The notes under the pieces: model-generated | What the model saw: the letters and a program-made list of their open reading frames with translations, nothing else | What the model was told of the DNA's origin: nothing | The model's database searches: none | Shown: positions 43,551 through 47,092 of the stretch, in pieces | Layout of the letters: the number at the start of each line of letters is the position of its first letter | How positions within the stretch are numbered: the first letter of the stretch is position 1 | Source: an archaeon | GTDB lineage: Archaea > Thermoplasmatota > Thermoplasmata > JAJSAE01 | DNA: 64,000 nucleotides | NCBI GenBank assembly: GCA_024281315.1 | Contig: JAJSAE010000075.1 | Location: 4,222-68,221, forward strand | Reading direction: 5' to 3' | Program-made: the position numbers and the translations under genes

Positions 43551-44018
43551 TTATTTCCATGTGGGCCCCACATCTTCGAACCCCTGCCTCTGGCCAGTCC
43601 CGGCCATCTTAATCATCTTCTCCGGGTGGAATAGCATCATGTAAGTATTGGCCGCATGCTCCCTTACCCTCCTTTCCGTGAGCCAGACAAGTTCCCTGCC
43701 GTCTTTCGCCTCGTCCATGTGAACGAACACCTCTATTATGTGCGTGCTGGTCATCAGCTGGGCCTGCATTATCCCTTGCGAGGCCTCGTGGGCGCACTGC
43801 TTGTCTATCTCCTCAGGGCCGGGCATTCCTAAGGCCATCGCTATATCGCAACCCTCGTTTTCTATCAGGATTTTGCACGCCACTGCAAGGTCCTTGAATC
43901 CGGGGACAGTTCTCCGTATTATTTTGAAGCCTGTTCCCTGTTTCTGCAACTCGGCCACCGCAATTGCACCCATGTTGACCACGGAGAATGTAGTATCAAC
44001 TATGCCAATCTTCTTCAT
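43551..44018 (-). CDS. ribC: archaeal-type riboflavin synthase (MJ1184 family)
   Basis: Start [70 protein letters not shown] and [15 protein letters not shown] closely follow the archaeal RibC pattern. The ORF-track ORF is N-terminally extended. Confidence 0.85.
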
Positions 44019-47000
44019 AAGATCTCCTCCAGTGCCTTCCTGCACTTCTCCACCCACAGTTTCATGCCCATGCTCTCGAACATGGAGAGCGCCCTTCCCA
44101 GAGTGGCAGTTGTTTTCTCTTTATTTCCCGTTGCCATGAAGAGCAGAGCATATTCGTAAAGCCCTTTTGCCATTCCTGTTCGGTCCACCCCTCCCTCAAG
44201 TGTCTCCATAGACTCCCTGAACCAATCAAATGATTCTGCCCATTCTCCCTTCTCACGGTATATCGCACCCTTTATCCAACATGCCCCTCCTTCCACAGAT
44301 TTCACGCCAATCTCTCTAGATATCTGTAGAGCCTCATCAGCTGATTCCATGGCCTCATCAAGCATTTCTGCCTGCAGATACGAAGCTGCCAGATTTTTAA
44401 GCGACTGGGAAATTCCCCTCAGGTCCGCTATCTCCCGCATTATATTCAAGCTCCGGGAGTTATAATCAATCGAGTCACTGTATCTTCCCATCTCGCCCAT
44501 GACATTTCCGATGTTGCTCAGAGATGTTGCCTCCCCGTTCCGGTCTTTTATCTCTTTCTCTATTGCCATGGCCTCCTGAAATATTTTCAATGCTCTGTCA
44601 AGCTCACCTTTGTCTTCATAGGCATTTCCGATATTGCTCAGGGAGAGGGCGGTTCCGTATCTATCACCTATGGTTCTGGTGATGGCGAGAATCTCATTGT
44701 ATTCCTTGAGGGCTTCATCCAGTTCCCCCCTGAAATGAAGTACAATTCCCATATTGTTATGGAGGGCGGCCTGTCCATATATACTTCCAACCTTTTTCAT
44801 AAGAACTAGAGACCTTCTGTATGTCTTGAGAGCGCCTGCCATATCCCCTTTTGTCCTCAGGACATTGCCTATATTGTTCAAGGTCAGAGCAGCTCCCTAT
44901 TCGTCATTCAGTCTTTCCCGTATCTCCAGGGCTTTATTGAAGCTCTTCAAAGAGCTCTTGTAATCCCCTCTGTTCAGCATAATTGAGCCCATAGTATGGT
45001 TTGCCAATGCGATATACTTCCGGTCGCCCGCCTCTTCGGCCATTTTCAGGCCCACTCCCGCAATTTCCGTCGCCTCCTCGTACTTGCCGTTTCTATAATT
45101 TATCCATGCACTTCGAATCAACAACCCCGTTTTTTCCTTTGAAATTGTATTCTCGAGAAGGGATAAACCTTTATTGCAATGGGCCATTGCGTCATCAAAC
45201 TCTCCCTTTTTTTCCAGCGCATTGGCTATTCTGTCGTGAAGTTCTGCCTGTTTTTCAACTCTCTCCGCAATTTCGAGGGACCTGCTGTAATTCTCGATGG
45301 ACTCGTCGTATTTCCCACGGAGCATGTATATTTCACCCAGACGCACCAGCATATCGAGTTCTCTGTCTCTTTTATCTATGCTCTTAACATCCGGAATGAG
45401 GGCTAATGCCCTTCCATACGCTTCCTCTGCCTGCTCCGCGGCATATGTACTTTCAGCCTTCTCTCCCGCTCGGACGGAGTAATCAAATGCCTTTTCATAA
45501 TTTTTTGTCCTGCCGAAATGCGTAGCCAGTTCATATATGACCTCATCCTCTCGCCCTCTGTACTTCTCCTCGTAATATTCCCCTATGTTCCTGTGGTACA
45601 TGGCCTTCCATCTCGGGTTTATCTCAGAATATATGAATTCTTGGAATATGCCGTGAACAAATTGCCCTTTGTCCCCAAGAACAGAGATAATCCCGGAGGA
45701 TTGTAATCTGTTCATGACCGCTTCCGCATTCACTGCGTTAATCGAAAACGCTGTGCTTTTGTCAAAAACTCTGCCCATGCATGCCGTATATTCCGCCATC
45801 ATCATATCATCTATTCCGAGATTTTCGAGCCTTTTTTCTACTATCTCTTCCAGCGTAGATGGGATAGAATAGGTGTCCGATGTCAGGACATACTTCCCAT
45901 CTCTTTTTTCTATGCTCCCATCTTCTTCCATGTTTCTCATGAATTCTATCAGGAACAATGGATTTCCATCGCTATTTTCGGCGATTTTATCCACGAATTC
46001 ATCCGCAAACAGGTTTTCGGGGTATAACTCGTCAATCATGGCCCTCATCGAGCTCCTTTCCATGTTTTTGAGATTTATGTCATATATCGTGCCCTCAGCC
46101 CTCATTTTTTCCAGATATTTCTGCACGATTTCCCCCTCCTCATTCGGCCGAAGTGTAGATATGATCAGTATCCTCTCAGTGGTGATGTTCCTTGCAATGT
46201 ACTGCAGAACGAAGAGAGAGGATTCATCCGCCCAGTGGAGGTCTTCAAGCACGAGAAGGACCGGCTTATTTCCCGAGAGGTTCTTTAATATCTTAAGAAT
46301 CCTGTTCGCAATCTTTATCCTCTCCGCCTCAAGTTTCACTCCTTCTATATCCCTCCTGACAAGGAATTTCTTCTCTGCAAGCGAAAGAACGGCCCTCTCT
46401 ATGGGGGCCACTTTATCCATACTTCCCCTCCAATCCTCGAGAATATAGCCGTACTTTTCCTCAATTTTTTCAAGGGTCTTTTTGAGTTCATTCTTCATTT
46501 CCGGGTGTTCTTTCCCCCTGAATATGGCGGTGAGGAATATATGTTCCCCATGCTCAATCAATATTCCCATTTCCCCGTAATCAAGCCTTCCGAGCCCTTT
46601 CGCCTCGGAATTCGAGAAGGAATCACTTATGAAGTCCTGGACTGCCGAGAACATTCCCGCAAATATGTCGGGGTCTATGTCTTCACACTTCGGCGTGGCC
46701 TTGGCAACAACGAGGCCGGCCGTGTCTATGGCGAATATCTGGCTAAATGAGATATAGGCCTGCTCCCTGAAAAGCGGCTCGGATATGTGGCCTTCAAGAG
46801 ATCTTGAGAACATGAGGAACGGCTTCATGGTATTGGGAAAGGCTGCACCGTAAAGTACGGCATGGCTCCCAACATCAAGGGATTCTGTGAACTCATTAAC
46901 AAGCCTTGTTTTGCCTATTCCAGCCTCGCCGGAGACCATAACCGTGGAGCCGCGAGAATCAGCCACGCTCAGAAACTTTTCCCGGAGCACAGCGATCTCC

Positions 47001-47092
47001 TTTTCTCTCCCTGTAAAAGATACCTTTTCATTCATCTTACCCCCTAATGGCCCCATGTTTACCGCTATGGCTCCCCTACCAATCTTCTTCAT
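44015..47092 (-). pseudogene. STAND-type P-loop NTPase with a Roadblock/LC7-like insertion and C-terminal TPR array, interrupted by one in-frame TAG (44897-44899); alternatively a read-through or sequencing artefact
   Basis: The 731-aa ORF (Walker A VSGEAGIGKTRLV, Walker B PVLLVLEDLHWADE, TPRs) ends at a TAG. The downstream 288-aa TPR ORF continues in the same frame after 5 codons. The TPR repeat phase runs unbroken across the stop (..RLNDE*GAALTLNNIGNV.. versus ..DRYGTALSLSNIGNA..). Confidence 0.55.

What the first reader, a model, noticed from the sequence alone, without database searches (positions are those of the whole stretch)
44015..47092. STAND P-loop NTPase with a Roadblock/LC7-like domain inserted between Walker A and Walker B, embedded inside the riboflavin gene cluster
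Walker A (GEAGIGKT, about nt 46900) and Walker B (LLVLEDLHWADE, about nt 46270) are separated by some 200 aa. Within that gap, ISFSQIFAIDTAGLVVAKATP...DIFAGMFSAVQDFISD...GEMGILIEHGEHIFLTAIF has the hallmarks of a Roadblock/LC7 fold. This is the second Roadblock unit in the window and again sits next to a P-loop NTPase, here within the same polypeptide. The gene lies between ribL/ribB and ribC/ribH on the same strand, with start/stop overlaps on both sides. The context is odd for a regulator: either it was inserted into the cluster or it is a cluster-linked regulator.
Basis: partly seen in the sequence, partly recalled or inferred. Interest (0 to 1): 0.55.

Follow-up and report, generated by a model that had tools for sequence, protein, structure and literature searches.

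The report
Switch ATPase with longin-like insert
An archaeal signalling ATPase that carries an unannotated longin/roadblock-type domain inside its nucleotide-binding core has been wedged into a riboflavin operon that close relatives keep uninterrupted, and in this genome it is cut by a premature stop codon.

Summary
The motifs, the insert and the rib neighbours are real. However, 44015-47092(-) is not one open gene: an in-frame TAG at 44897-44899 (Trp/TGG in the nearest ortholog) splits it into 731 and 293 codons, and TAG is an ordinary stop in this window.

The insert is the best-conserved part of the protein. It defines a large unannotated family (4873 cluster representatives). Most are Thermoplasmatota STAND-TPR paralogs, but it also occurs in membrane and surface proteins.

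The rib position is a lineage-specific insertion exactly at the ribL|ribC junction. Four relatives, including the closest, have an uninterrupted ribB-ribL-ribC-ribH. A decayed duplicate of the ribC 5' end flanks the insert. A riboflavin regulator is unlikely. I infer that the longin module is an interaction platform coupled to the STAND switch.

The parts
44015..47092 (-). Whole STAND-TPR reading frame (1025 codons), including one in-frame TAG. It is called as a 731-aa protein in the public record (P0001).
47036..47092 (-). 57-nt leader (MKKIGRGAIAVNMGPLGGK). It is a decayed duplicate of the first ~57 nt of ribC. Its ATG overlaps the ribL stop (ATGA).
   Evidence: junction sequences; alignment with L008/L007 ribL-ribC junctions; 14-nt exact repeat plus a 16/19 match; 0/2000 and 11/2000 shuffles reach the scores
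47033..47035 (-). ATG of Met20, equivalent to the start codon of orthologs P0002/P0003 (MNE...). It is the probable ancestral start.
46907..46930 (-). Walker A / P-loop GEAGIGKT (aa 55-62)
   Evidence: invariant G..G.GK columns
46418..46780 (-). Longin-type (longin/roadblock superfold) insert, aa 105-225, topology beta-beta-alpha-beta-beta-beta-alpha-alpha. It is the best-conserved segment of the protein.
46259..46417 (-). Connector back into the NBD (aa 226-278): a helix, a short strand (FLVRR), and the long helix that precedes Walker B
   Evidence: secondary structure
46223..46258 (-). Walker B LLVLEDLHWADE (aa 279-290)
   Evidence: near-invariant L-E-D-x-H-W-A-D columns
45653..46132 (-). 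End of the NBD, the helical domain and the winged-helix domain of the NOD module (aa 321-480)
44900..45652 (-). First part of the TPR sensor arm (aa 481-731)
   Evidence: TPR_1/2/12, TPR_MalT
44897..44899 (-). In-frame amber codon TAG (codon 732). It aligns with Trp in ortholog P0002 (LDDEWGMALTLNNIG), so a single TGG>TAG change.
44018..44896 (-). Second part of the TPR arm (293 codons, same frame). It is intact, 66% identical to P0002, and shows no excess non-synonymous change.
44015..44018 (-). ATGA overlap: the STAND stop (TGA) with the ribC start (ATG). The last STAND codons supply a GGAGGAG Shine-Dalgarno-like motif for ribC.
43551..44018 (-). ribC, archaeal riboflavin synthase
   Evidence: TIGR01506, 201.8 bits against a cut-off of 100.55
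43103..43513 (-). ribH, lumazine synthase
   Evidence: TIGR00114, 155.9 bits against a cut-off of 84.6
47089..47562 (-). Cytidylyl/adenylyltransferase-fold gene in the RibL (archaeal FAD synthetase) position. Only the domain-level model is passed.
   Evidence: TIGR00125, 71.8 bits against a cut-off of 27.7; conserved position
47580..48299 (-). ribB, DHBP synthase
   Evidence: TIGR00506, 226 bits against a cut-off of 177

Best explanation
SHOWN:
- The locus encodes a MalT-type STAND ATPase (AAA_16 nucleotide-binding domain, helical domain, winged helix, long TPR sensor arm). It has no separate N-terminal effector domain.
- A ~120-150 aa domain of the longin/roadblock superfold, with longin topology, is inserted between strand beta2/helix alpha2 and the Walker-B strand of the P-loop domain.
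- It is one paralog of a very large family in Thermoplasmatota-type archaea. The insert is the most conserved part of the protein.
- The insert is a mobile module. It also occurs, singly or in tandem, on multi-pass membrane proteins, on giant CARDB/PKD surface proteins, on OmpA-fusion proteins, and as small stand-alone ORFs.
- This copy was inserted exactly at the ribL|ribC junction of an otherwise conserved ribB-ribL-ribC-ribH operon. The insertion left a duplicated ribC 5' end and kept ATGA coupling on both sides.
- In this genome it carries a very recent TGG>TAG nonsense change, or a base-call error, at codon 732.

INFERRED:
- Like other STAND proteins, it is an ADP/ATP switch that oligomerises when the TPR arm binds a ligand.
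- The longin module acts as the dimerising interaction platform through which the switch is read out or controlled. It would sit at the position where the initiator/STAND clades carry their helix-2 insert, facing the subunit interface. It may pair with the homologous modules on membrane proteins.
- The gene merely rides on rib operon transcription and does not regulate riboflavin synthesis.
For: STAND identity:
- AAA_16 scores 77.7 bits (cut-off 32.6), with TPR families alongside.
- The AF2 model of aa 20-480 has pLDDT 91 and pTM 0.81.

Insert fold:
- The model has pLDDT 79 alone and 83-97 in context, with topology beta-beta-alpha-beta-beta-beta-alpha-alpha.
- Foldseek independently returns the same two groups.
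- Weak Robl_LC7 hits occur in 4 of 29 relatives.

Family and mobility of the insert:
- 4055 or more homologs, mostly 950-1070 aa, named Thermoplasmata/Thermoplasmatota.
- The insert profile finds 4873 representatives, including other architectures.
- The insert is 78.5% identical to P0002, against 48% in NBD1 and 55-66% in the other regions.

Insertion into the rib operon:
- Orthologs L001 and L002 share the position.
- L007, L008, L009 and L010 have an uninterrupted operon. L008 is otherwise syntenic with the window.
- A duplicated ribC 5' end flanks the insert.
- None of 79 metagenome loci holding relatives has rib genes nearby.

Nonsense codon:
-.
- TAG ends 12 of 53 ORFs in the window.
- The downstream 293 codons are intact, with dN 0.24 against 0.285 upstream.
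Against: - No experiment or complex model supports the proposed role of the longin module. I had no model coordinates, so I could not measure its position relative to the nucleotide pocket or the subunit interface.
- The fold assignment rests on AlphaFold models, and sequence identity to any solved longin or roadblock is 4-19%.
- The ATGA coupling on both sides is conserved in three genomes from two rib sub-lineages. That conservation could instead mean selection for co-expression with rib genes.
- The premature stop means the gene may not be functional at all in this organism.
Confidence: 0.65

Rival explanations
1. Cluster-linked regulator. The STAND protein senses a flavin or a pathway intermediate through its TPR arm and tunes riboflavin/FAD synthesis. 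That would explain why it is translationally coupled between ribL and ribC.
For: - Same-strand ATGA overlaps occur on both sides in the window, L001 and L002.
- The position is retained in two rib sub-lineages that are only ~70% identical in their rib proteins.
Against: - The closest relative by rib proteins (L008, 87.9%) and three others have the same operon without the gene.
- All other sampled family members lie in unrelated contexts: and 0 of 79 loci.
- No HTH or other DNA-binding effector domain was detected.
- The gene carries a nonsense codon here while all rib genes are intact.
- TPR arms differ radically between L001 and L002 (37% identity) although their rib proteins are 93% identical.
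Confidence: 0.1
2. Cis-acting nucleotide-state regulator. The insert is a true MglB/Roadblock descendant. It acts on the P-loop of its own or a neighbouring protomer as a built-in GAP/GEF-like element, as Roadblock/longin platforms do for small GTPases.
For: - Roadblock and longin domains are known platforms that contact the switch regions of P-loop GTPases (PMC3747258, PMC10933270).
- Weak Robl_LC7 profile hits occur in 4 of 29 relatives.
- The insert is more conserved than the NBD itself, and two Glu-His pairs are near-invariant in the STAND version only.
Against: - The same module is common on proteins with no NTPase domain at all: membrane, OmpA-fusion and surface proteins. Its core function therefore cannot be specific to this P-loop.
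- STAND/AAA+-type ATPases have a different catalytic geometry from small GTPases.
- The Robl_LC7 threshold and the Roadblock N-terminal helix are not met.
Confidence: 0.15
3. Conflict/immunity-type STAND (NLR/Avs-like). This is an accessory, fast-evolving sensor that recognises foreign proteins through its TPR arm. It has lodged in a highly expressed housekeeping operon, and the longin module is the adaptor to an unknown effector.
For: - There are many paralogs per genome, including adjacent and tandem copies.
- Presence and absence vary among relatives.
- STAND dN is 0.36 against 0.03-0.05 for the flanking rib genes between L001 and L002, and the TPR arm has been swapped.
- Another accessory gene (a type IIG RM enzyme) is wedged between gyrB and gyrA in the same window.
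Against: - No nuclease, protease, TIR or other effector domain is present.
- PADLOC gives only a generic TPR hit and a marginal Avs3a P-loop match, E 0.0032.
- The sampled neighbourhoods are housekeeping genes rather than defence islands.
Confidence: 0.15
4. Pyrrolysine or programmed read-through. The TAG at codon 732 is decoded, and the full 1025-aa protein is made.
For: - The reading frame stays open and conserved for 293 codons after the TAG.
- The host belongs to a phylum that includes Pyl-using Methanomassiliicoccales (own knowledge).
Against: - TAG terminates 12 of 53 ORFs in the window. These include ribH and the DUF835 gene, at lengths equal to their homologs.
- No tRNA of any kind was found in the window.
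- The ortholog has ordinary Trp/TGG at this position.
Confidence: 0.04

Closest known systems
MalT-type / AAA_16 STAND ATPases with TPR or SUPR sensor arms (E. coli MalT, Streptomyces AfsR, Pyrococcus PH0952)
   Same: - Walker A and the 'DDxHWxD'-type Walker B are present.
- The NBD-HD-WHD module is followed by a long helical-repeat sensor arm.
- Pfam AAA_16 is passed.
   Different: - There is no LuxR/SARP or other N-terminal effector domain.
- A ~120-150 aa longin-type domain is inserted between beta2/alpha2 and Walker B. The bacterial AAA_16 model TIGR03903 aligns only from aa 217 onward in its best stretch.
- The family is essentially archaeal (Thermoplasmatota) and multi-paralogous.
Longin domains (Sec22b, Ykt6, VAMP7, TRAPPC1/2/4, AP sigma/mu N-terminal, Mon1-Ccz1, SRX; Lokiarchaeal longin 8yqg)
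   Same: - The topology is beta-beta-alpha-beta-beta-beta-alpha-alpha.
   Different: - Sequence identity is 4-14%, and no longin-type Pfam model matched.
- Here the domain is an insertion inside a STAND P-loop domain rather than a free domain or subunit.
- No small GTPase or SNARE partner is known.
- It is found in Thermoplasmatota and in bacterial-type OmpA fusions, not in Asgard archaea or eukaryotes.
Roadblock/LC7/MglB domains (PF03259; MglB, MglC, LAMTOR2/3, Rag C-terminal domains)
   Same: - Faint profile similarity occurs in 4 of 29 relatives.
- They are widely distributed in prokaryotes and classically paired with P-loop NTPases.
   Different: - The N-terminal helix that defines Roadblock is absent.
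- The window copy gives no Robl_LC7 hit.
- The partner NTPase here is an ASCE/STAND ATPase joined in cis, not a small TRAFAC GTPase in trans.
Archaeal riboflavin operon ribB-ribL-ribC-ribH
   Same: The gene order and the 4-nt overlaps are identical to those of relatives L007-L010.
   Different: The operon is interrupted between ribL and ribC by a 3-kb STAND gene in the window, L001 and L002 only.

Membership tests
STAND NTPase, MalT/AAA_16 type | Walker A GxxxxGK[ST] and Walker B hhhhD[DE] (AAA_16 form ..DDxHWxD) | tested here: met
   GEAGIGKT is at aa 55-62 and LLVLEDLHWADE at aa 279-290. The columns are invariant or near-invariant in 82 sequences.
STAND NTPase, MalT/AAA_16 type | Pfam AAA_16 above the gathering score | tested here: met
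   77.7 bits against a cut-off of 32.6, split into two stretches by the insert.
STAND NTPase, MalT/AAA_16 type | Tripartite NOD (NBD + helical domain + winged helix) followed by a repeat sensor arm | tested here: met
   [not shown]
STAND NTPase, MalT/AAA_16 type | Ligand-dependent ADP/ATP exchange and oligomerisation | not testable with these tools
   Requires biochemistry.
Roadblock/LC7 (PF03259) | Profile match at or near the Pfam threshold | tested here: not met
   The window insert gives no hit at E<=10. Only 4 of 29 relatives hit, with a best E of 0.0032.
Roadblock/LC7 (PF03259) | alpha-beta-beta-alpha-beta-beta-beta topology with an N-terminal helix | tested here: not met
   No helix precedes the first strand in either model. 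Two helices follow the last strand.
Roadblock/LC7 (PF03259) | Structural similarity to solved Roadblock/MglB proteins | tested here: met
   [not shown]
Longin domain (structural class) | beta-beta-alpha-beta-beta-beta-alpha-alpha topology | tested here: met
   DSSP of both AF2 models.
Longin domain (structural class) | Best structural neighbours are solved longin domains | tested here: met
   [not shown]
Longin domain (structural class) | Sequence-family membership (Pfam Longin, Sybindin, Sedlin_N, Clat_adaptor_s, SRP-alpha_N) | tested here: not met
   None of these appears for any of the 29 insert sequences at E<=10. The profile search of PDB sequences finds nothing relevant.
Longin domain (structural class) | Dimeric platform that binds a small GTPase or SNARE | not testable with these tools
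   No multimer modelling or coordinates were available.
Riboflavin biosynthesis operon | ribB, archaeal ribC and ribH pass equivalog models | tested here: met
   TIGR00506 226.1 bits (cut-off 177.45), TIGR01506 201.8 bits (cut-off 100.55), TIGR00114 155.9 bits (cut-off 84.6).
Riboflavin biosynthesis operon | The 47089-47562 gene is RibL (archaeal FAD synthetase) | tested here: inconclusive
   Only the domain-level cytidylyltransferase model TIGR00125 is passed. The assignment rests on size and on the conserved position next to ribB/ribC.
Pyrrolysine (TAG) recoding | TAG avoided as a stop codon; Pyl machinery present | tested here: not met
   12 of 53 ORFs end in TAG. No tRNA was found in the window. 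The ortholog has Trp at the site. The rest of the genome was not available.
Known anti-phage STAND systems (Avs and others, PADLOC) | Match to a defence-system HMM | tested here: not met
   Only a generic TPR model and a marginal Avs3a P-loop stretch (E 0.0032) matched.

The most novel reading that the evidence does not exclude
The insert defines a previously unrecognised, very large prokaryotic family of longin-topology domains. It has thousands of copies in Thermoplasmatota STAND ATPases, plus copies on archaeal and bacterial membrane, surface and OmpA-fusion proteins. In this reading it works as a homotypic adaptor that couples membrane receptors to a STAND (AAA+-like) nucleotide switch. 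Two things would follow. The longin topology would not be an Asgard/eukaryote innovation. The 'longin/roadblock platform plus P-loop NTPase' partnership would extend beyond small GTPases to the ASCE division.
Probability: 0.25. Interest if true: 0.75.

Novelty: new variant of a known kind. Interest (0 to 1): 0.55.

Why it matters
Longin and roadblock domains are central to arguments about the archaeal origin of eukaryotic membrane-traffic regulators. They are discussed mostly for Asgard archaea and as partners of small GTPases.

Here a longin-topology domain is fused in cis into a STAND ATPase in thousands of Thermoplasmatota proteins, and it is reused on membrane proteins. That would broaden both the phyletic range and the functional repertoire of the fold. 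It would also give an unannotated domain family (no Pfam or NCBIfam model) a structural identity.

The rib-operon context is a clean small example of how an accessory gene can invade a translationally coupled operon. It keeps the coupling on both sides, leaves a duplicated target scar that could mediate precise loss, and is then inactivated. It is probably not a new layer of riboflavin regulation.

Tried and rejected
- **Pyrrolysine or read-through for the in-frame TAG.** Rejected: TAG ends 12 of 53 ORFs, no tRNA is present in the window, and the ortholog has TGG.
- **Sequence-level assignment of the insert.** Pfam found no hit for the window copy. A PDB sequence search with the profile found nothing relevant. 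PDB phmmer with the N-terminal 480 aa gave only a marginal winged-helix hit. NCBIfam and PADLOC found nothing for the insert.
- **Second copy of the insert or any Robl_LC7 domain elsewhere in the window.** None was found.
- **Genome-contig scan with the single protein.** The patterns were too specific.
- **Look-up of the window's own 731-aa product.** It is not on record for context retrieval.
- **AFDB50 fold search.** The library was unavailable.
- **P0005, also 731 aa.** I checked it for the same stop. It is an unrelated truncation at a contig end.
- **Neighbourhood of a giant insert-bearing protein (L011).** It gave no functional clue.
- **dS-based timing.** Synonymous sites are saturated between all available genomes.
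- **Literature searches.** Searches for a longin/roadblock insertion in STAND ATPases found none.
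Full report
**1. Observation check**

- Walker A GEAGIGKT is at aa 55-62 (nt 46907-46930).
- Walker B LLVLEDLHWADE is at aa 279-290 (nt 46223-46258), 224 residues later.
- The quoted alpha/beta stretch is at aa 114-191.

NCBIfam assigns the neighbours on the same strand:
- ribB, 47580-48299 (TIGR00506, 226 bits).
- A cytidylyltransferase-fold gene in the RibL position, 47089-47562.
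- Archaeal ribC, 43551-44018 (TIGR01506, 202 bits).
- ribH, 43103-43513 (TIGR00114, 156 bits).

Both junctions are 4-nt ATGA overlaps.

An in-frame TAG at 44897-44899 (codon 732) splits it into a 731-aa ORF and a 293-codon tail in the same frame. The TPR repeat reads straight through it: '...RLNDE*GAALTLNNIG'.

**2. The nonsense codon**

- Full-length homologs are about 950-1070 aa.
- The nearest ortholog, P0002 (61% identical to the 731-aa query; about 63% over the whole frame), has Trp at this position (LDDEWGMALTLNNIG). The window therefore differs by one TGG>TAG transition.
- TAG is an ordinary stop here. It ends 12 of 53 crude ORFs, including ribH and the DUF835 gene, at the same lengths as in relatives.
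- No tRNA lies in the window. Pyrrolysine decoding is therefore unlikely.
- The 293 downstream codons contain no further stop and are 66% identical to P0002. Their non-synonymous divergence (dN 0.24) is no higher than upstream (0.285).

The change is therefore either very recent or a base-call error. The public record calls the 731-aa product (P0001).

**3. What the protein is**

- Pfam gives AAA_16 (77.7 bits, in two stretches, the first ending at aa 112) and many TPR families.
- An AlphaFold model of aa 20-480, built with an 82-sequence alignment, is confident (pLDDT 91, pTM 0.81).

It is thus a MalT-type STAND ATPase (NBD-HD-WHD plus TPR arm). No separate effector domain was detected.

**4. 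The insert**

*Sequence searches.*
- Residues ~105-225 give no Pfam hit for the window copy, even at E<=10.
- Among 29 aligned relatives, four give weak Robl_LC7 hits (best E 0.0032).
- Neither NCBIfam, PADLOC nor PDB sequences give anything.

*Structure.*
- Modelled alone (aa 101-262, pLDDT 79, pTM 0.71) and in context (pLDDT 83-97), the insert is a beta-beta-alpha-beta-beta-beta-alpha-alpha sandwich. No helix precedes the first strand.
- Roadblock proteins follow: MglB 9.7, MglC 9.4, LAMTOR3 9.1.
- Foldseek returns the same two groups at E 3e-4 to 3e-3.

PMC10933270 describes Roadblock as the version with an N-terminal helix and longin as the version with extra C-terminal helices.

**5. Conservation and distribution**

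- The insert is the best-conserved segment of the protein. It is 78.5% identical to P0002, against 48% for the N-terminal part of the NBD and 55-66% for the other regions.
- A profile of the insert alone finds 4873 cluster representatives at E<=1e-3 among 1.84 billion (3073 at E<=1e-10).
- Most of these are ~1000-aa STAND-TPR proteins carrying the domain at residues ~85-215.

The same module also occurs in other architectures:
- Two or three times in 1300-2400-aa proteins with CARDB, PKD and DUF5915 domains.
- At the C-terminus of a multi-pass membrane protein (P0208).
- Twice in tandem after a membrane region (P0168).
- After DUF11/choice-of-anchor domains.
- Fused to OmpA-family peptidoglycan-binding domains (L070, L073).
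- In small tandem ORFs (L038, L056, L078).

Source names for the STAND family are Thermoplasmata, Thermoplasmatota, Proteinoplasmatales SG8-5 and 'Euryarchaeota' MAGs. Several paralogs per contig are common. Four literature searches found no description of such an insertion.

**6. The riboflavin context**

- The two nearest orthologs occupy the same slot, ribB-ribL-STAND-ribC-ribH, with 4-nt overlaps on both sides of the STAND gene. They are P0002 (L001) and P0003 (55% identical to the query; L002).
- More distant paralogs lie elsewhere.
- None of 79 metagenome loci encoding relatives has a rib gene nearby.
- Four genomes found through RibC have an uninterrupted ribB-ribL-ribC-ribH. The ribL/ribC 4-nt overlap is seen in three of them; in L009 the called genes overlap by 32 nt.
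- One of these, L008, shares the window's wider synteny: DUF835, the aminoacyl-tRNA synthetase, the M20 peptidase and Tpt1.
- In a tree of RibL+RibC+RibH, the window pairs with L008 (87.9% identity, no STAND). L001 and L002 (with STAND) pair with L007 (89-90% identity, no STAND). Presence of the STAND gene is therefore not congruent with the rib genes.

*The scar.*
- The window's STAND frame begins with a 57-nt leader. Its first 14 nt (ATGAAGAAGATTGG) repeat the ribC start exactly.
- Its remainder still matches ribC: GGTAAACATGGG-GCCATT against GGTCAACATGGGTGCAATT.
- The peptides correspond too: MKKIG...VNMG against Rib[18 protein letters not shown].
- Shuffles reach the observed scores 0/2000 times (whole leader) and 11/2000 times (the part beyond the 14-mer).

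This is a duplicated-target scar. Recombination between the two copies would restore exactly the ribL-ribC junction seen in L008.

I infer one old insertion with repeated precise losses. Repeated gain cannot be excluded.

The last STAND codons supply a GGAGG motif upstream of the ribC ATG in all three genomes. ribC can therefore probably still initiate despite the upstream nonsense codon (inference).

**7. Rate heterogeneity**

- Between L001 and L002, the rib genes have dN 0.03-0.05, but the STAND gene has dN 0.36.
- The C-terminal TPR arm is only 37% identical between them.
- The window and L001 share 66% identity in that arm.

Sensor-arm replacement or gene conversion with paralogs is the simplest reading (inference).

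**8. How it most likely works**

*Shown:*
- The architecture.
- The fold class of the insert.
- The insert's exceptional conservation and its mobility between architectures.
- The insertion history.
- The nonsense codon.

*Inferred:*
- The protein is a ligand-triggered ADP/ATP switch that oligomerises, like MalT, Apaf-1 and NLRs.
- It has no effector domain, and the insert is both its most constrained part and a module shared with membrane proteins. The longin-type domain is therefore most likely the interaction (dimerisation) platform through which the switch is controlled or read out.
- The insertion point lies after beta2/alpha2 and before the Walker-B strand. This corresponds to where initiator/STAND-clade ATPases carry their helix-2 elaboration, near the subunit interface (own knowledge).

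*Rivals:*
- A cis GAP/GEF-like action on the P-loop.
- An NLR/Avs-like conflict sensor.
- A genuine riboflavin-linked regulator, which I consider least likely given the patchy, non-congruent distribution and the premature stop.

**9. Limits**

- All fold statements rest on AlphaFold models.
- No multimer modelling, profile-profile search or whole-genome survey could be run.
- The single genome-contig scan was wasted on over-specific patterns.
- The AFDB library was unavailable.
- The organism is known only by the names that sources give to homologs.

Noticed in passing
window 29488-37412 (-): A 1175-aa Eco57I/MmeI-type restriction-modification ORF (32003-35530) sits between gyrB (35499-37412) and gyrA (29488-32028) on the same strand. 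The crude ORF calls overlap at both ends. This is a second case in this window of an accessory gene wedged into a housekeeping gene pair.
   Followed up: partly
window 14063-20448 (-): A KaiC-like ATPase (18096-18971) lies directly downstream of a V4R-domain protein (18995-19885). Five ORFs with no significant Pfam match surround them (14063-14683, 14680-15312, 15335-17335, 17293-18087, 19885-20448). No Robl_LC7 hit and no copy of the STAND insert was found there.
   Followed up: partly
window 6021-13375 (+): A 2193-aa ORF has an STT3/AglB-like oligosaccharyltransferase N-terminus and many CarboxypepD_reg/transthyretin-like repeats. A CARDB-domain protein follows it (12602-13375). It does not contain the longin-like module found in other giant archaeal surface proteins.
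   Followed up: partly
L001 vs L002 (STAND genes 7339-10356 and 502-3516): These two genomes have rib proteins 93% identical, yet their STAND orthologs are only 55% identical overall and 37% identical in the C-terminal TPR arm. The window's arm is 66% identical to L001's. This suggests sensor-arm replacement or gene conversion among paralogs.
   Followed up: partly
L070:4176-6101, L073:4467-6269, L056:2-1420, L078:1-1043, L038:3-1047: The insert module also occurs fused to OmpA-family peptidoglycan-binding domains (a bacterial-type architecture) and as pairs of adjacent small ORFs in soil metagenomes. The family therefore reaches beyond Thermoplasmatota.
   Followed up: partly
L014:4899-11155; L005:6001-9159 and 11572-14499: STAND-longin-TPR paralogs occur as tandem (L014) or near-adjacent (L005) copies. 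In L005 they flank a family-B DNA polymerase gene.
   Followed up: no
window 42312-43106 (+): A DUF835 protein is convergent with ribH and overlaps its end. The same arrangement is conserved in L008.
   Followed up: no
window 55998-56891 (-): A 297-aa ORF has only a sub-threshold Tubulin/FtsZ GTPase-domain match (31.5 bits against a cut-off of 33). It lies next to TFB and the PolD large subunit and may be a divergent tubulin-superfamily protein.
   Followed up: no
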